Source: a virus (lineage: Duplodnaviria > Heunggongvirae > Uroviricota > Caudoviricetes). Taken from it: a DNA stretch of 6,262 nucleotides. The stretch is from IMG/VR virus record IMGVR_UViG_2602041905_000007; one strand, given 5' to 3'. Made by a program: the position numbers and the translations under genes. The notes under the pieces were generated by a model, which was not told where the DNA came from, ran no database searches, and saw only the letters and a program-made list of their open reading frames with translations. Shown here piece after piece: positions 1 through 6,262 of this stretch; position 1 is the first letter of the stretch, and every line of letters begins with the position of its first letter.

Positions 1-977
1 GTTTTCTACCTTTGTGAGCATCATGGCTGTGTGATCCATCAGTCTGAGCTTGACCAGAGTAACGGGCGGTGGATCTGTGAAAACACGGGCATGTGGACTC
101 GTGACGGTCTGACATTTTTCAGCGCCGCGGATAATGAAATTCCGCCGCCGCGCTCCATCACATTCCATATCTGGACGGCGTACAGTCCGTTCACCACCTG
201 GGTACAGATTGTCTATGACTGGCTGGATGCACTGAAAGATCCCAACGGCCTGAAAACCTTTGTGAACACCACGCTGGGCGAGACCTGGGAAGAGGCCGTG
301 GGCGAAAAACTCGATCACCAGGTGCTGATGGATAAGGTTGTGCGTTACACGGCTGCGGTGCCTTCCCGGGTGGTTTATCTGACGGCGGGCATTGACTCGC
401 AGCGAAACCGTTTTGAGATGTATGTCTGGGGATGGGCTCCGGGAGAGGAAGCCTTTCTGGTGGATAAAATCATCATTATGGGGCGTCCCGATGAGGAAGA
501 GACGCTGTTACGTGTGGATGTGGCGATCAACAAAAAATACCGCCATGCAGACGGAACCGAAATGACCATTTCCCGTGTCTGCTGGGACACCGGGGGGATC
601 GATGGCGAAATTGTCTATCAGAGGTCAAAAAAACACGGTGTTTTCCGGGTGCTGCCGGTAAAAGGTGCATCTGTTTATGGCAAGCCGGTGATCACCATGC
701 CAAAAACCCGCAATCAGCGGGGCGTGTATCTGTGCGAAGTGGGGACGGACACCGCAAAAGAAATTCTCTATGCCCGTATGAAAGCCGATCCCACGCCTGC
801 GGATGAAGCCACGTCGTATGCCATCCGTTTTCCTGATGATCCGGAGATTTTTTCGCAGACAGAGGCGCAGCAACTGGTGGCGGAAGAGCTTGTGGAGAAG
901 TGGGAAAAAGGAAAGATGCGTCTGCTGTGGGATAACAAAAAGCGGCGTAACGAAGCGCTGGACTGCCTGGTGTATGC
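1..977 (+). CDS. A: Terminase large subunit (lambda gpA-like), internal/C-terminal fragment; 5' end lies outside the window, 3' end cut by the N-run at 978-987
   Basis: Frame 1 is open from base 1 (VFYLCEHHGCVIHQSELDQ...) to the N-run. The translation (…WTAYSPFTTWVQIVYDWLDALKDPNGLKTFVNTTLGETWEE…GIDSQRNRFEMYVWGW…) is recognisably the C-terminal half of lambda terminase large subunit. The first M in the ORF track at 31 is an internal GTG, not a real start. Confidence 0.85.
521..977. repeat. Copy 1 of an imperfect direct duplication (partner 988-1444), about 457 bp, about 10 mismatches counted by eye
   Basis: Direct comparison: 538-547 taccgccatg equals 1005-1014, and 971-977 tgtatgc equals 1438-1444, giving a constant offset of 467. 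Differences are mainly third-codon-position changes. Confidence 0.9.
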
Positions 978-987
978 NNNNNNNNNN
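978..987. other. Assembly gap 1 (10 N) between overlapping contig ends
   Basis: Run of 10 N immediately flanked by the near-identical duplicated segments. Confidence 0.9.
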
Positions 988-1589
988 CGGCGATCAACAA
1001 AAAATACCGCCATGCAGACGGAACCGAAATGACCATTTCCCGTGTCTGCTGGGACATCGGGGGGATCGATGGCGAAATCGTTTATCAGAGGTCAAAAAAA
1101 CACGGTGTTTTCCGGGTGCTGCCGGTAAAAGGCGCATCTGTCTATGGCAAGCCGGTGATCACCATGCCAAAAACCCGCAATCAGCGGGGCGTGTATCTGT
1201 GTGAAGTGGGGACGGACACCGCAAAAGAAATTCTCTATGCCCGTATGAAAGCCGATCCCACGCCTGTGGATGAAGCCACGTCGTATGCTATCCGTTTTCC
1301 TGATGATCCGGAGATTTTTTCGCAGACAGAGGCGCAGCAACTGGTCGCGGAAGAGCTTGTGGAGAAGTGGGAAAAAGGAAAGATGCGTCTGCTGTGGGAT
1401 AACAAAAAGCGGCGTAACGAAGCGCTGGACTGCCTGGTGTATGCCTACGCGGCATTACGTGTGTCCGTGCAACGCTGGCAGCTTGATCTGGCTGTACTGG
1501 CAAAATCCCGGGAAGAAGAGACGACCCGGCCAACCCTTAAAGAACTGGCAGCGAAGCTGTCCGGAGGAGTGAATGGTTACAGTCGCTGA
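988..1589 (+). CDS. A: Terminase large subunit (gpA-like) C-terminal end, second copy after the gap; 988-1444 repeats 521-977
   Basis: Frame 3 is open from the gap to TGA at 1587-1589 (…MTISRVCWDIGGIDGEIVYQRSKKHGVFRVLPVKG…LDCLVYAYAALRVSVQRWQLDLAVLAKSREEETTRPTLKELAAKLSGGVNGYSR). It runs directly into the gpW-like start. The frame differs from the first copy because the copy offset is 467 bp. Confidence 0.85.
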
Positions 1590-1779
1590 ACTGCAGGCGC
1601 TGCGTCAGGCGCGCCTTGATTTATTAACCGGTAAACGGGTGGTGTCTGTCCAGAAAGATGGTCGCAGAATTGAATATACGGCAGCTTCTCTGGATGAGCT
1701 TAACCGGGCGATCAATGATGCGGAGTCGGTACTGGGGACAACCCGCCGTCGCCGTCGTCCGCTGGGAGTGAGGTTATGA
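1573..1779 (+). CDS. W: Head-tail joining / head completion protein (lambda gpW-like), 68 aa
   Basis: ATG at 1573 with GGAGG at 1563-1567; 68-aa product MVTVAELQALRQARLDLLTGKRVVSVQKDGRRIEYTAASLDELNRAINDAESVLGTTRRRRRPLGVRL resembles lambda gpW (same length, shared LTGKRV.VQKDGRR core). The start overlaps the terminase 3' end and the TGA stop overlaps the portal ATG (ATGA at 1776-1779). Confidence 0.85.
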   Translation: MVTVAELQALRQARLDLLTGKRVVSVQKDGRRIEYTAASLDELNRAINDAESVLGTTRRRRRPLGVRL

Positions 1780-2310
1780 AACGAACGCCTGTCCTGATTG
1801 ATGTGAACGGCGTTCCGCTTCGGGAGAGCCTCAGCTACACCGGTGGCGGTGCAGGATTTGGCGGGCAAATGGCAGAGTGGTTGCCACCCTCGCAGAGTGC
1901 CGATGCGGCCCTGCTGCCCGCGTTGCGTCTGGGGAATGCCCGTGCAGATGATCTGGTGCGCAATAACGGAATAGCGGCCAATGCGGTGGCCCTGCATAAG
2001 GATCACATTGTCGGGCATATGTTTCTGATTAGCTACCGTCCGAACTGGCGCTGGCTGGGGATGCGGGAGACCGCGGCAAAAAGTTTTGTCGATGAGGTGG
2101 AGGCGGCCTGGTCAGAATACGCAGAAGGGATGTTTGGTGAGATCGACGTGGAAGGGAAACGCACGTTTACGGAATTTATCCGTGAAGGTGTGGGCGTTCA
2201 TGCGTTTAACGGCGAAATCTTTGTGCAGCCGGTCTGGGATACGGAGAGTACGCAACTGTTTCGTACGCGTTTTAAAGCCGTGAGTCCGAAACGGGTGGAC
2301 ACGCCAGGAC
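1684..2310. repeat. Copy 1 of an imperfect direct duplication (partner 2322-2948), about 627 bp, roughly 28 mismatches counted by eye
   Basis: gcttctctggatgagcttaaccgggcg at 1684 equals 2322 onward; tgagtccgaaacgggtggac at 2281-2300 equals 2919-2938; constant offset 638. The segment covers the gpW-like 3' end plus the portal 5' end. Confidence 0.9.
1776..2310 (+). CDS. B: Portal protein (lambda gpB-like) N-terminal fragment, first copy, cut by the N-run at 2311-2320
   Basis: ATG at 1776 overlapping the gpW-like stop; translation MKRTPVLIDVNGVPLRESLSYTGGGAGFGGQMAEWLPPSQSADAALLPALRLGNARADDLVRNNG… matches the lambda portal N-terminus (…GGGSGFGG…GNARADDLVRNNG…). Confidence 0.8.
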
Positions 2311-2320
2311 NNNNNNNNNN
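2311..2320. other. Assembly gap 2 (10 N) between overlapping contig ends
   Basis: Run of 10 N flanked by duplicated sequence. Confidence 0.9.
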
Positions 2321-2321
2321 G

Positions 2322-2417
2322 GCTTCTCTGGATGAGCTTAACCGGGCGATCAATGATGCGGAGTCGGTACTGGGGACAACCCGGTGTCGCCGTCGTCCGC
2401 TGGGAGTGAGGTTATGA
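2322..2417 (+). pseudogene. W: Orphan 3' fragment of the gpW-like gene (second-copy overlap), not an independent gene
   Basis: Encodes …ASLDELNRAINDAESVLGTTRCRRRPLGVRL* in frame with no start; it repeats 1684-1779 with one R-to-C change. Most likely an artefact of the unmerged overlap. Confidence 0.7.
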
Positions 2418-4006
2418 AACGAACGCCTGTCCTGATTGATGTGAACGGCGTTCCGCTTCGTGAGAGTCTCAGCTACAACGGGGGCGGTGCAGGATTTGGC
2501 GGGCAAATGGCTGAGTGGTTGCCACCGGCGCAGAGTGCCGATGCGGCCCTGCTGCCCGCGTTGCGTCTGGGGAATGCCCGGGCAGATGATCTGGTGCGCA
2601 ATAACGGAATAGCGGCTAATGCGGTGGCTCTGCATAAGGATCACATTGTCGGGCATATGTTTCTGATCAGCTACCGTCCGAACTGGCGCTGGCTGGGGAT
2701 GCGGGAGACCGCAGCAAAAAGCTTTGTCGATGAGGTGGAGGCGGCCTGGTCGGAATACGCCGAAGGGATGTTTGGCGAGATCGACGTGGAAGGAAAACGC
2801 ACGTTCACGGAATTTATCCGTGAAGGTGTGGGCGTTCATGCGTTTAACGGCGAAATCTTTGTGCAGCCGGTCTGGGATACGGAAACCACGCAGTTATTCC
2901 GTACGCGTTTTAAAGCCGTGAGTCCGAAACGGGTGGACACGCCTGGACACGGTATGGGGAACCGTTTTCTGCGGGCCGGTGTGGAGGTCGATCGATATGG
3001 CCGTGCCGTCGCGTACCATATCTGTGAGGATGATTTTCCGTTCTCTGGTAGTGGACGATGGGAACGGATCCCGCGTGAACTTCCCACCGGGCGTCCGGCC
3101 ATGCTGCATATTTTCGAGCCGGTGGAGGACGGGCAGACCCGTGGGGCTAATCAGTTTTACAGCGTCACGGAACGGCTGAAGATGCTCGATTCCCTGCAGG
3201 CAACACAGCTTCAGTCGGCCATAGTGAAGGCGATGTATGCAGCGACGATTGAAAGTGAACTTGATACCGAAAAGGCCTTTGAATATATCGCCGGCGCGCC
3301 ACAGGAGCAGAAGGATAATCCGCTTATTAATATTCTGGAGAAGTTTTCCAGCTGGTATGACACGAATAACGTGACACTGGGCGGTGTCAAAATTCCGCAC
3401 CTTTTCCCTGGTGATGATCTGAAACTACAGACTGCGCAGGATTCAGACAATGGATTTTCTGCGCTTGAACAGGCGCTGCTGCGGTATATCGCCGCCGGTC
3501 TTGGCGTTTCCTACGAACAGTTGTCCCGTGATTACTCGAAGGTCAGTTACTCAAGTGCCCGCGCCTCCGCCAATGAGTCGTGGCGCTATTTTATGGGGCG
3601 GCGAAAATTTATTGCGGCCCGGCTGGCCACGCAGATGTTTTCCTGCTGGCTGGAAGAGGCACTTCTTCGGGGGATTATTCGTCCGCCACGGGCACGTTTT
3701 GATTTTTATCAGGCGCGATCAGCCTGGTCACGGGCAGAGTGGATTGGTGCCGGAAGAATGGCCATTGACGGGCTCAAGGAAGTCCAGGAATCAGTGATGC
3801 GCATTGAGGCCGGACTGAGCACGTATGAGAAAGAGCTGGCGCTGATGGGCGAGGATTATCAGGACATTTTCCGCCAGCAGGTCAGGGAATCTGCTGAGCG
3901 GCAAAAAGCCGGACTCTCACGTCCGGTGTGGATAGAGCAGGCGTATCAGCAGCAGATAGCGGAGAGTCGTAGGCCGGAAGAGGAGACAACACCACGTGAG
4001 ACGTAA
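2414..4006 (+). CDS. B: Portal protein (lambda gpB-like), complete second copy, 530 aa
   Basis: ATG at 2414 in the ATGA overlap with the gpW-like stop; continuous ORF to TAA at 4004-4006. The translation matches lambda portal along its length (…FEPVEDGQTRGAN.FYSV…LQSAIVKAMYAATIESELDT…LLRYIAAGLGVSYEQLSR…GRMAIDGLKEVQE…EAGLSTYEKE…). The track's start at 2384 is an upstream GTG inside the gpW-like fragment. Confidence 0.9.
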   Translation: MKRTPVLIDVNGVPLRESLSYNGGGAGFGGQMAEWLPPAQSADAALLPALRLGNARADDLVRNNGIAANAVALHKDHIVGHMFLISYRPNWRWLGMRETAAKSFVDEVEAAWSEYAEGMFGEIDVEGKRTFTEFIREGVGVHAFNGEIFVQPVWDTETTQLFRTRFKAVSPKRVDTPGHGMGNRFLRAGVEVDRYGRAVAYHICEDDFPFSGSGRWERIPRELPTGRPAMLHIFEPVEDGQTRGANQFYSVTERLKMLDSLQATQLQSAIVKAMYAATIESELDTEKAFEYIAGAPQEQKDNPLINILEKFSSWYDTNNVTLGGVKIPHLFPGDDLKLQTAQDSDNGFSALEQALLRYIAAGLGVSYEQLSRDYSKVSYSSARASANESWRYFMGRRKFIAARLATQMFSCWLEEALLRGIIRPPRARFDFYQARSAWSRAEWIGAGRMAIDGLKEVQESVMRIEAGLSTYEKELALMGEDYQDIFRQQVRESAERQKAGLSRPVWIEQAYQQQIAESRRPEEETTPRET

Positions 4007-5401
4007 TCTTTCACACATTATTGCCGCAGCATTCAATGAACCGCTGCTTCTGGAGCCCGCCTATGCGCGGGTTTTCTTTTGCGCGCTCGGGCGCGAGATG
4101 GGGGCAGCAAGTCTTTCGGTACCACAACAGCAGGTACAGTTTGATGCNNNNNNNNNNTGCACCGGCTGGGTGGTATGCGGCCATTTTCCGGAATGACAGG
4201 CTATGACGGCATTGTCGCCTGTCTTCAGCAGGCAATGGCGGATAGCCAGGTGCGGGGCGTACTGCTGGACATTGACAGTCCGGGCGGGCAGGCCGCCGGC
4301 GCGTTTGACTGCGCTGACATGATTTACCGCCTCCGTCAGCAGAAGCCGGTCTGGGCACTGTGCAATGACACGGCCTGTTCTGCAGCCATGCTGCTGGCGT
4401 CGGCCTGCTCCCGACGGCTGGTTACCCAGACATCCCGTATCGGCTCCATTGGCGTGATGATGAGCCATGTCAGCTATGCCGGTCATCTGGCGCAGGCCGG
4501 TGTGGATATCACGCTGATTTACTCAGGGGCGCACAAGGTGGATGGCAATCAGTTTGAAGCGTTGCCGGCAGAGGTTCGCCAGGACATGCAGCAGCGGATT
4601 GATGCGGCGCGCCGGATGTTTGCCGAAAAAGTGGCGATGTTTACCGGTCTGTCTGTTGATGCCGTCACGGGAACAGAGGCTGCCGTTTTTGAAGGTCAGT
4701 CCGGCATTGAGGCCGGGCTGGCGGATGAATTAATCAATGCGTCGGATGCCATCAGTGTGATGGCCACGGCGCTGAACAGTAATGTCAGAGGAGGCACTAT
4801 GCCGCAATTAACTGCAACGGAAGCCGCCGCGCAGGAGAACCAGCGAGTGATGGGGATCCTGACATGCCAGGAAGCGAAAGGACGTGAACAGCTTGCCACG
4901 ATGCTGGCAGGACAACAGGGCATGAGCGTTGAACAGGCCCGGGCGATTCTGGCCGCGGCGGCACCGCAGCAGCCGGTGGCATCCACGCAGAGTGAAGCCG
5001 ATCGCATTATGGTGTGTGAAGAAGCGAACGGTCGTGAACAACTGGCGGCAACGCTGGCGGCGATGCCGGAGATGACGGTGGAAAAAGCCCGCCCGATCCT
5101 GGCTGCTTCACCGCAGGCGGATGCCGGACCATCACTCCGTGATCAGATCATGGCACTGGATGAGGCAAAAGGGGCTGAGGCGCAGGCTGAACAGCTGGCT
5201 GCCTGCCCGGGAATGACAGTGGAGAGCGCCCGGGCTGTGCTGGCTGCGGGATCAGGTAAGGCAGAACCGGTCTCTGCATCCACAACCGCCATGTTTGAAC
5301 ATTTCATGGCGAACCATTCACCGGCAGCGGTACAGGGTGGCGTGGCACAGACGTCAGCAGACGGTGATGCGGACGTGAAAATGCTCATGGCCATGCCATG
5401 A
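3996..5401 (+). CDS. C: Head maturation protease / scaffold fusion (lambda gpC-like, S49 SppA/ClpP-like peptidase family), interrupted by the N-run at 4148-4157
   Basis: GTG at 3996 (GAGGAG at 3979-3984) overlapping the portal stop; N-terminus MRRNLSHIIAAAFNEPLLLEPAYARVFFCAL matches the lambda gpC N-terminus. After the gap, frame 2 is open to TGA at 5399-5401 and reads …FSGMTGYDGIVACLQQA…VLLDIDSPGG…GAFDCADMIYRLRQQKPVWALCNDTACSAAMLLASACSRRLVTQTSRIGSIGVMM…ITLIYSGAHKVDGN…, matching the gpC protease core. The two flanks are in different frames because the gap length is a placeholder. Confidence 0.85.
4148..4157. other. Assembly gap 3 (10 N) inside the gpC-like gene; no flanking duplication
   Basis: Run of 10 N. 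The flanking coding sequence is in different frames (left codons start at positions divisible by 3, right at positions leaving remainder 2), and too few residues lie between the conserved FFCAL and SGMTGY blocks. Confidence 0.85.
4799..5401 (+). CDS. nu3: Nested in-frame scaffolding protein (lambda Nu3-like), translated from an internal start in the gpC-like frame
   Basis: ATG at 4799 is in the gpC-like frame and is preceded by a strong Shine-Dalgarno AGAGGAGG at 4787-4794. It sits at the equivalent position to the lambda Nu3 start (…GG(R/T)M… just before the scaffold domain). Product MPQLTATEAAAQENQRVMGILTCQEAKGREQLA… is Ala/Gln/Glu-rich, as expected for a scaffold. Confidence 0.55.
   Translation: MPQLTATEAAAQENQRVMGILTCQEAKGREQLATMLAGQQGMSVEQARAILAAAAPQQPVASTQSEADRIMVCEEANGREQLAATLAAMPEMTVEKARPILAASPQADAGPSLRDQIMALDEAKGAEAQAEQLAACPGMTVESARAVLAAGSGKAEPVSASTTAMFEHFMANHSPAAVQGGVAQTSADGDADVKMLMAMP
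4835..5265 (+). repeat. Three diverged tandem repeats of about 45-50 codons within the gpC/Nu3-like scaffold domain
   Basis: Protein-level repeats: ENQRVMGILTCQEAKGREQLATMLAGQQGMSVEQARAILAAAAPQ / EADRIMVCEEANGREQLAATLAAMPEMTVEKARPILAASPQ / LRDQIMALDEAKGAEAQAEQLAACPGMTVESARAVLAAGSG. The DNA copies are clearly diverged, so this is not an assembly artefact. Confidence 0.7.
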
Positions 5402-5421
5402 AGTCAGTGCTGACCATCAAT

Positions 5422-5427
5422 AGGAGG
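5422..5427 (+). promoter_or_regulatory. Shine-Dalgarno site for the gpD-like gene
   Basis: AGGAGG located 10 nt upstream of the ATG at 5438. Confidence 0.7.
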
Positions 5428-5437
5428 TTTTTACAAT

Positions 5438-5785
5438 ATGGTGACGAAAACCATCACTGAACAGCGTGCGGAAGTACGTATTTTTGCCGGTAATGATCCG
5501 GCTCATACCGCCACAGGCAGCAGCGGGATTTCCTCGCCAACACCGGCACTGACGCCCCTGATGCTGGATGAAGCCACCGGGAAACTGGTGGTCTGGGACG
5601 GACAGAAAGCCGGTAGTGCGGTTGGCATACTGGTACTGCCGCTTGAAGGCACAGAGACGGCGCTGACGTATTACAAGTCGGGAACCTTTGCGACGGAGGC
5701 AATCCACTGGCCTGAAAGTGTGGATGAACACAAAAAGGCCAACGCCTTTGCTGGCAGTGCCCTGAGTCACGCGGCGCTGCCGTAA
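5438..5785 (+). CDS. D: Head decoration protein (lambda gpD-like), 115 aa
   Basis: ATG at 5438 with AGGAGG upstream, TAA at 5783-5785. The translation …GNDPAHTATGSSGISSPTPALTPLMLDEATGKLVVWDGQKAGSAVGILV…TYYKSGTF…WPE…K.AFAGSA… matches lambda gpD motifs (SDPAHTAT, MTPLMLD, KLVAWDG, AAVGIL, FYKSGTF, AFAGTA). Confidence 0.88.
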   Translation: MVTKTITEQRAEVRIFAGNDPAHTATGSSGISSPTPALTPLMLDEATGKLVVWDGQKAGSAVGILVLPLEGTETALTYYKSGTFATEAIHWPESVDEHKKANAFAGSALSHAALP

Positions 5786-5792
5786 CACGTTA

Positions 5793-5814
5793 TCAGGCCA
5801 CCGCGGTGGCCTGA
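5793..5814. promoter_or_regulatory. Perfect 22-bp palindrome in the gpD-gpE intergenic region (possible RNA hairpin or protein-binding site)
   Basis: tcaggccaccgcggtggcctga equals its own reverse complement; it lies 8 nt after the gpD-like stop and 28 nt before the gpE-like start. No strong U-tract follows. Confidence 0.5.
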
Positions 5815-5842
5815 CTGATTTCTGAATGAAAGGAACTGATTT

Positions 5843-6262
5843 ATGGGATTGTTTACGACCCGCCAGTTACTCGGTTATACCGAACAAAAAGTTAAATTTC
5901 GTGCGCTGTTTCTGGAGCTGTTTTTCCGCCGTACGGTGAATTTCCATACCGAAGAGGTGATGCTGGACAAAATTACCGGAAAAACGCCGGTGGCGGCCTA
6001 TGTCTCCCCGGTTGTTGAAGGAAAAGTGCTGCGTCATCGTGGTGGTGAAACCCGCGTGTTGCGTCCGGGCTACGTCAAGCCGAAACACGAATTTAATTAC
6101 CAGCAGGCGGTTGAGCGCCTTCCTGGTGAAGATCCATCTCAACTGAATGATCCGGCTTACCGCCGTCTGCGTATCATTACCGATAACCTCAAACAGGAAG
6201 AGCACGCGATTGTCCAGGTGGAAGAAATGCAGGCGGTAAATGCTGTGTTGTATGGCAAATAC
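5843..6262 (+). CDS. E: Major capsid protein (lambda gpE-like), N-terminal 140 codons; continues beyond the window
   Basis: ATG at 5843 with AAGGA 7 nt upstream; open to the window end. The translation MGLFTTRQLLGYTEQKVKFRALFLELFFRR…AAYVSPVVEGKVLRHRGGE…PGYVKPKHEFN…DPAYRRLRII…EEHAIVQVEEMQAVNAVLYGKY closely parallels the lambda gpE N-terminus. Confidence 0.9.
   Translation, partial: MGLFTTRQLLGYTEQKVKFRALFLELFFRRTVNFHTEEVMLDKITGKTPVAAYVSPVVEGKVLRHRGGETRVLRPGYVKPKHEFNYQQAVERLPGEDPSQLNDPAYRRLRIITDNLKQEEHAIVQVEEMQAVNAVLYGKY

What the first reader, a model, noticed from the sequence alone, without database searches (positions are those of the whole stretch)
521..1444. Unmerged, roughly 98%-identical overlap of terminase sequence across the first N-gap, pointing to two related alleles
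The 457 bp before the gap (521-977) and the 457 bp after it (988-1444) are the same stretch of terminase coding sequence at a constant offset of 467 bp. They differ at about 10 positions, almost all synonymous third-position changes, with two amino-acid differences (T vs I in CWD[T/I]GGIDG, A vs V in TP[A/V]DEAT). That pattern is typical of real divergence under purifying selection between two related lambdoid prophages (or strains in a mixed sample) that an assembler failed to merge, not of sequencing error. The consequence is that the terminase reading frame appears broken and about 467 bp too long here, and any gene call across 978-987 is chimeric.
Basis: seen in the sequence. Interest (0 to 1): 0.55.

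Follow-up and report, generated by a model that had tools for sequence, protein, structure and literature searches.

The report
False terminase duplication from scaffolding artefact
The apparent 457-base repeat inside a phage terminase gene is not biology: a draft E. coli assembly placed the copies from two sister prophages of one genome side by side across a 10-N placeholder gap, which is an ordinary assembly artefact.

Summary
Positions 521-977 and 988-1444 are the same terminase stretch at offset 467, with 10 mismatches in 457. Seven are synonymous third-position changes. Three change an amino acid (T/I, A/V, and V/A at the first base after the gap).

The window is the whole GenBank record JQFD01002007.1. 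It comes from E. coli isolate 913 (ST95, O1:K1), a cultured isolate sequenced on MiSeq and assembled with SPAdes. The record is four contigs joined by three 10-N runs.

Complete ST95-type genomes (SCU-108, APEC O1) carry two phage-21-like prophages about 150 kb apart. These differ at exactly the ten sites. The copy before the gap equals one prophage and the copy after it equals the other, base for base in SCU-108. Merging the overlap either way restores an intact terminase 3' part identical to a reference gene.

The same artefact recurs at the second gap (628-base overlap, 29 mismatches). The third 10-N run hides 110 real bases.

There is no real tandem duplication and no evidence for a mixed sample. 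Interest is low.

The parts
1..977 (+). Contig C1: internal part of the terminase large subunit gene (gpA nuclease domain), prophage P2 allele
   Evidence: Pfam GpA_nuclease, E=1e-68. 0 mismatches to SCU-108 prophage P2 (L004) and 1 to the APEC O1 prophage at 1.35 Mb. 100% identical to many complete E. coli genomes.
521..977 (+). Overlap copy 1: P2-type allele (variable sites 521-879) plus 98 bases shared by both prophages (880-977)
   Evidence: 10 mismatches in 457 against 988-1444. All ten sites are exactly the P1/P2 differences in SCU-108.
978..987 (.). 10-N run 1: placeholder joining two overlapping contigs (true distance -457)
   Evidence: Collapsing the overlap reproduces the reference genes exactly.
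988..1444 (+). Overlap copy 2: P1-type allele of the same terminase stretch; begins exactly at the first P1/P2 SNP
   Evidence: 0 mismatches to SCU-108 P1 (L003) and to the APEC O1 prophage at 1.20 Mb over 988-1682. Pfam GpA_nuclease.
988..2310 (+). Contig C2: terminase 3' end (to 1589), gpW (1573-1779) and portal 5' part. It is a hybrid: P1 allele to 1346, a shared 336-base stretch at 1347-1682, then P2 allele at 1683-2310.
   Evidence: Mismatch maps. Best complete-genome match is 99.9%, never 100%. Pfam gpW.
1683..2310 (+). Second overlap, copy 1 (P2 allele): gpW 3' end and portal 5' part
   Evidence: 29 mismatches in 628 against 2321-2948 at offset 638; 24 of the 29 changed sites leave the amino acid unchanged.
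2311..2320 (.). 10-N run 2: placeholder joining overlapping contigs (true distance -628)
2321..4147 (+). Contig C3: P1 allele; gpW 3' fragment, complete portal gene (2414-4006), start of the S49 peptidase/gpC gene. It begins exactly at the first P1/P2 SNP after the shared stretch.
   Evidence: 1 mismatch (3168) to SCU-108 P1 and 70-71 mismatches to P2-type prophages. Pfam Phage_portal_2.
4148..4157 (.). 10-N run 3: stands for 110 real bases of the S49 peptidase/gpC gene
   Evidence: C3 ends at L002 position 10827 and C4 starts at 10938. The missing reference sequence is shown.
4158..6262 (+). Contig C4: P1 allele; S49 peptidase/scaffold (gpC/Nu3 type), head decoration protein, major capsid protein 5' part
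   Evidence: 0 mismatches to SCU-108 P1 and 77 to P2. Pfam Peptidase_S49, HDPD, Phage_cap_E.

Best explanation
The 467-base 'tandem repeat' is a false duplication created by assembly and scaffolding.

The sequenced strain, E. coli isolate 913 (ST95 O1:K1), carries two co-resident phage-21-like lambdoid prophages, as related finished genomes do. Their head-gene modules are about 97% identical and contain long stretches of perfect identity. A short-read de Bruijn-graph assembler produces separate contigs for the two alleles wherever they differ. It breaks or switches path in the identical stretches. The scaffolder then chained contigs from both prophages into one record and put a fixed 10-N placeholder wherever it could not merge them.

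Across gap 1, the P2-type allele (521-977) and the P1-type allele (988-1444) of one terminase segment therefore lie in series.

Shown here: the overlap itself; the exact identity of each copy to a different prophage of single finished genomes; the single-copy state of this region in finished genomes and phages; and the source record and its assembly method.

Inferred: the graph-level mechanism (bubble branches linearised in series, k near 99), and the conclusion that contig C2 is a path switch and not a true recombinant.
For: (1) The copies are separated by an N-run, and the alignment runs right to the end of C1 and from the first base of C2.

(2) In SCU-108, P1 and P2 differ over this stretch at exactly the ten window sites. 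C1 equals P2 and 988-1682 equals P1, each with 0 mismatches. APEC O1 gives the same result, with 1 and 0 mismatches.

(3) Merging the overlap gives 1122 bases to the stop codon. The result is byte-identical to the 3' part of the P2 terminase gene (1-977 plus 1445-1589) or of the P1 gene (1-520 plus 988-1589).

(4) All eight finished prophage loci examined have a 1929-base terminase gene. In phage 21 and its relatives the 6262-base window maps to 5257 colinear bases, which equals 6262 - 467 - 638 + 100.

(5) Of the 5426 complete E. coli genomes, 1953 have this module, with a median of 2 places per genome.

(6) The same pattern occurs at gap 2 (29 mismatches in 628, P2 then P1). Gap 3 hides 110 bases, so the 10-N length is a fixed placeholder.

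(7) C2 and C3 both begin exactly at the first P1/P2 SNP after a shared block. C1 ends 98 bases after the last SNP. This is what bubble-branch nodes of a k≈99 graph look like.

(8) The source is record JQFD01002007.1 of GCA_000742495.1: isolate 913, a cultured ST95 strain, MiSeq 2x300 reads, SPAdes assembly (PMC4620641).

(9) This class of error is described in the literature: duplicated overlapping contigs placed adjacently (PMC2864568) and gaps between false duplicates (PMC9516828).
Against: - No reads or assembly graph of isolate 913 were available. Copy number, coverage and phasing in the source are therefore inferred from related finished genomes.
- The ends of C2 (2310) and C3 (4147) and the start of C4 (4158) do not fall at positions predicted by a simple two-allele k=99 bubble model, so those breakpoints are unexplained.
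- In SPAdes' own convention, K=99 would predict that C1 ends one base later than it does.
- That SPAdes writes a fixed 10-N 'artificial gap' is recalled from memory and was not verified here.
Confidence: 0.93

Rival explanations
1. Mixed sample. The two alleles come from two different E. coli strains (or a contaminant) sequenced together, each with one prophage, and not from two prophages in one genome.
For: The assembly has at least 2007 records, which is unusually fragmented for an isolate. Allele pairs alone cannot distinguish paralogues from strain mixtures.
Against: The DNA came from cultures of a single isolate (PMC4620641). Single finished genomes of the same lineage type hold both alleles (exactly in SCU-108; 1 mismatch on C1 in APEC O1), in two prophages about 150 kb apart. 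The median is 2 places per genome among carriers.
Confidence: 0.04
2. Real tandem partial duplication inside the terminase gene of one prophage, with the N-run covering a short unsequenced junction.
For: Taken at face value, the record shows head-to-tail copies.
Against: The offset of 467 breaks the reading frame. Each copy matches a different prophage of finished genomes site for site. All 8 finished loci and the phage records examined are single-copy here. An identical overlap pattern at the next gap argues for a systematic assembly cause.
Confidence: 0.01
3. Sequencing or consensus errors in one redundant contig of a single-copy locus.
For: Redundant low-coverage contigs can occur in unfiltered assemblies.
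Against: Seven of the 10 differences are synonymous third-position changes. All ten are established alleles found in finished genomes.
Confidence: 0.01
4. This variant uses the same artefact but a different phasing. Isolate 913 truly has a recombinant prophage with the C2 haplotype (P1-type terminase end joined to P2-type gpW/portal), as seen in ATCC 11775. The other prophage would be C1-C3-C4, and C2 would be an interloping contig inserted between C1 and C3.
For: The P1-type-terminase plus P2-type-portal haplotype exists naturally in ATCC 11775 P2, UPEC129 and PRO_A-1374, with 2-3 mismatches to C2. With 300-base reads, a 336-base shared stretch can be bridged by read pairs.
Against: No finished genome matches C2 exactly. 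Its two halves are each exact in SCU-108 P1 and P2. Finished genomes with the C1 allele mostly have the P2-type portal next to it.
Confidence: 0.2

Closest known systems
False (heterotype) duplications in draft assemblies: 'duplicated overlapping contigs' of Kelley & Salzberg 2010 (PMC2864568); false duplications with intervening gaps, Ko et al. 2022 (PMC9516828)
   Same: Two nearly identical contigs are placed adjacently in one scaffold. A gap lies between them, the alignment reaches the contig ends, and the sequence differences are real variants and not errors. The result is a spurious gene gain or a broken gene.
   Different: In those papers the two sequences are haplotypes of a diploid genome. 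Here the genome is haploid and bacterial, and the two sequences are paralogous copies in two co-resident prophages.
Lambdoid phage 21 head-gene module (terminase large subunit, gpW, portal, gpC/Nu3 S49 peptidase, gpD, gpE)
   Same: 99.1% nucleotide identity to phage 21 (OL657228, M81255) over the whole window once the overlaps are discounted. Pfam domains occur in lambda order.
   Different: Nothing biological differs. The window is a patchwork of two prophage alleles with two false overlaps and one 110-base hole.
Multiple near-identical lambdoid prophages in one E. coli genome as a cause of fragmented short-read assemblies (general knowledge, e.g. O157 Sakai-type genomes; ST95 genomes here)
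   Same: Two prophages about 150 kb apart share the same head module at about 97% identity, with identical blocks of 336 to 1811 bases.
   Different: None.

Membership tests
False duplication from scaffolding of overlapping allelic or paralogous contigs | The two copies are adjacent on one scaffold and separated by an assembly gap | tested here: met
   A 10-N run at 978-987 lies between the copies.
False duplication from scaffolding of overlapping allelic or paralogous contigs | The alignment extends to the ends of the contigs (end of the left contig, start of the right contig) | tested here: met
   The overlap runs to base 977 and from base 988.
False duplication from scaffolding of overlapping allelic or paralogous contigs | The locus is single-copy (not tandem) in finished genomes, and collapsing the overlap restores the gene | tested here: met
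   The terminase gene is 1929 bases in 8 finished loci. The collapsed sequence is byte-identical to the reference genes. Phage records are colinear over 5257 bases.
False duplication from scaffolding of overlapping allelic or paralogous contigs | Each copy corresponds to a distinct true source sequence (haplotype or paralogue) | tested here: met
   Copy 1 equals P2 and copy 2 equals P1 of SCU-108 with 0 mismatches. APEC O1 gives the same assignment, with 1 mismatch on C1.
False duplication from scaffolding of overlapping allelic or paralogous contigs | Read depth and read-pair signatures: about single-copy depth on each copy, double depth on shared blocks, discordant pairs across the join | not testable with these tools
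   The reads and assembly graph of isolate 913 were not available.
Lambda-family terminase large subunit (gpA) | gpA endonuclease domain, followed by gpW and a lambda-family portal in the same order as in lambda | tested here: met
   PF20454 at E=1e-68, PF02831 and PF05136. RefSeq annotation of identical loci agrees.
Genuine tandem segmental duplication | A sequenced junction between the copies, and a structure compatible with a functional or at least observed gene in finished genomes | tested here: not met
   The junction is Ns only. The offset of 467 is not a multiple of 3. No finished locus examined has it.

The most novel reading that the evidence does not exclude
Contig C2 may be a real recombinant prophage in this neonatal-unit ST95 outbreak clone (P1-type terminase 3' end joined to P2-type gpW/portal) and not a chimeric contig. 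That would record gene conversion between two co-resident prophages. Even so, this process is already known in lambdoid prophages and is visible in ATCC 11775.
Probability: 0.2. Interest if true: 0.15.

Novelty: not a real feature. Interest (0 to 1): 0.07.

Why it matters
This matters only as quality control. Gene calls across 978-987 and 2311-2320 are chimeric. The terminase and portal genes look broken or duplicated in this GenBank record, although the underlying prophages are intact. The 10-N runs must not be read as gap sizes. Pipelines that count prophage genes, pseudogenes or duplications in draft E. coli assemblies would be misled here. No new biology follows from this finding.

Tried and rejected
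- **Locating the source by sequence.** Exact-pattern scans with a 42-base pattern around the private SNP at 3168 found nothing in viral contigs, metagenome contigs or genome contigs. The source was found by an exact-protein look-up of the portal protein.
- **Wrong frame.** A first Pfam call used the wrong reading frame for C2 and failed. It was repeated correctly.
- **Sister isolates.** I looked up the truncated 186-aa terminase fragment hoping to find sister isolates with the same artefact. It returned unrelated assemblies with frameshifted or truncated terminase genes, and none were the sister isolates.
- **SPAdes and 10-N gaps.** A literature search for a citable statement that SPAdes writes 10-N artificial gaps gave nothing usable. 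That point remains from memory.
- **Breakpoint model.** A simple k=99 two-allele bubble model explains the start of C2, the start of C3 and the end of C1. It does not explain the ends of C2 and C3 or the start of C4. A third related prophage, or local coverage loss in the source, was considered but could not be tested.
- **Rejected readings.** Real tandem duplication, sequencing error and mixed sample were considered and rejected or down-weighted (see rival explanations).

Full report
**Observation.** The window contains three runs of exactly ten Ns, at 978-987, 2311-2320 and 4148-4157. It is therefore four contigs: C1 (1-977), C2 (988-2310), C3 (2321-4147) and C4 (4158-6262). An ungapped comparison of 521-977 with 988-1444 at offset 467 gives 10 mismatches in 457. 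The repeat finder and TRF find the same repeat, and chance is excluded (about 1e-216). In the terminase frame, seven differences are synonymous third-position changes. The tenth is the very first base of C2. Its codon is cut by the Ns, but in the reference prophages it reads GTG versus GCG, which is Val versus Ala.

**What the sequence encodes.** Pfam finds the gpA endonuclease domain of the terminase large subunit in both copies. It is followed by gpW, a lambda-family portal, an S49 peptidase (gpC type), head decoration protein D and major capsid protein E. The module is that of lambdoid phage 21 at 99.1% identity. In phage records the 6262-base window maps to 5257 colinear bases in four pieces. 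That figure equals 6262 minus the two overlaps with their Ns (467 and 638), plus the 100 bases by which gap 3 is under-represented.

**Where the two copies come from.** In complete E. coli genomes this module is common: 1953 of 5426 genomes carry it, with a median of two places per genome. I took both places from SCU-108 (P1 = L003, which also carries iss and a porin gene; P2 = L004, which carries tRNA and methylase genes; they lie about 150 kb apart). I also took both places from ATCC 11775 and from APEC O1.

- In SCU-108, P1 and P2 are identical for 1811 bases up to the position equivalent to window 520. Across the overlap stretch they differ at ten sites, which are exactly the ten window sites. 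They are then identical again for 336 bases.
- C1 equals P2 with 0 mismatches.
- C2 equals P1 with 0 mismatches over 988-1682, and equals P2 with 0 mismatches over 1347-2310.
- C3 equals P1 except at 3168.
- C4 equals P1 with 0 mismatches.
- APEC O1, an ST95 O1:K1 reference genome, gives the same assignment with 0-2 mismatches per contig.
- Collapsing the overlap either way yields a terminase 3' part that is byte-identical to the P2 or the P1 gene.

**Source.** An exact-protein look-up of the portal protein, which carries a private M252T change, returned a single record: JQFD01002007.1 of GCA_000742495.1. That record is 6262 bases long, so it is the window itself. According to PMC4620641, JQFD is E. 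coli isolate 913. It is an ST95 O1:K1:NM strain cultured from a neonatal feeding tube, sequenced on a MiSeq with 300-base paired reads and assembled with SPAdes. This makes a strain mixture unlikely. It also fits the finished ST95-type genomes that carry both prophages.

**Mechanism (inferred).** The two prophages form bubbles in a de Bruijn graph.

- C2 and C3 both begin exactly at the first P1/P2 SNP after a shared block.
- C1 ends 98 bases after the last SNP.
- The 457-base overlap is therefore exactly 'first SNP to last SNP plus 98', which is the extent of a bubble branch at k near 99.

The scaffolder then laid both branches in series and inserted a fixed 10-N placeholder. The placeholder carries no size information, because the true distances at the three runs are -457, -628 and +110 bases. 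My recollection that SPAdes uses a 10-N artificial gap is unverified (searches gave no citation). The ends of C2 and C3 and the start of C4 are not explained by this simple model.

**Comparison with what is known.** This is the bacterial, paralogue-driven equivalent of two published error classes. One is the 'duplicated overlapping contigs' of Kelley & Salzberg 2010 (PMC2864568). The other is the false duplications with intervening gaps of Ko et al. 2022 (PMC9516828). All sequence-level criteria of that class are met. The read-depth criteria could not be tested.

**Rivals.**

- *Real tandem duplication.* Disfavoured by the frame-breaking offset, the site-for-site match of each copy to a different prophage, the single-copy state in all finished loci examined, and the recurrence of the pattern at gap 2.
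- *Sequencing error.* Excluded by the synonymous bias and by the fact that all ten variants are established alleles.
- *Mixed sample.* Unnecessary and unlikely, but not formally excluded.
- *C2 as a true recombinant.* Whether C2 is a chimeric contig or a true recombinant prophage remains open. Similar haplotypes exist in ATCC 11775, UPEC129 and PRO_A-1374, with 2-3 mismatches.

**Verdict.** The duplication is not a real genomic feature. It matters for annotation quality only.

Noticed in passing
window 1683-2310 vs 2321-2948: There is a second unmerged overlap across the second N-run: 29 mismatches in 628 (95.4% identity), with 24 of the 29 changed sites leaving the amino acid unchanged. It covers the gpW 3' end and the portal 5' part, P2 allele then P1 allele. 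The gene call 1776-2417 across it is chimeric.
   Followed up: yes
window 4148-4157: The third 10-N run is not an overlap. It replaces 110 real bases of the S49 peptidase/gpC gene. The three N-runs are therefore fixed placeholders for true distances of -457, -628 and +110.
   Followed up: yes
window 988-2310: Contig C2 is a hybrid: P1 allele up to 1346, a 336-base stretch shared by both prophages, then P2 allele from 1683. No complete genome holds it exactly (best 99.9%). Similar natural haplotypes exist in ATCC 11775, UPEC129 and PRO_A-1374. It is either a chimeric contig or a true recombinant; this is unresolved.
   Followed up: partly
window 3168: There is a private C here, where all eight reference prophage loci have T. 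It changes the portal protein (M252T). The exact protein is on record only in this one GenBank contig. It is either a true private variant or a consensus error.
   Followed up: partly
L001/L002 (ATCC 11775) and L003/L004 (SCU-108), terminase region: Co-resident prophages share long blocks of perfect identity: 1811 bases in SCU-108, and both ATCC 11775 prophages encode the same terminase protein, WP_042210311.1. These blocks are embedded in 3-5% divergent sequence, which suggests gene conversion or recombination between prophages of one genome.
   Followed up: partly
window about 4830-5250: The C-terminal (scaffold/Nu3-like) part of the S49 peptidase gene encodes three degenerate repeats of about 45 aa, with a motif like ...EA.GREQLA..LA....M[ST]VE.AR.[IV]LAA...
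   Followed up: no
window 2310, 4147, 4158 (contig ends): These contig ends lie 4-8 bases from the nearest P1/P2 SNP or between SNPs. A two-allele k=99 bubble model does not predict them. A third related prophage or local coverage loss in the source genome is possible.
   Followed up: partly
whole record (JQFD01002007.1): The record number implies at least 2007 records in the assembly of a genome of about 5 Mb. The draft is therefore very fragmented or unfiltered, and similar artefacts are likely elsewhere in it.
   Followed up: no
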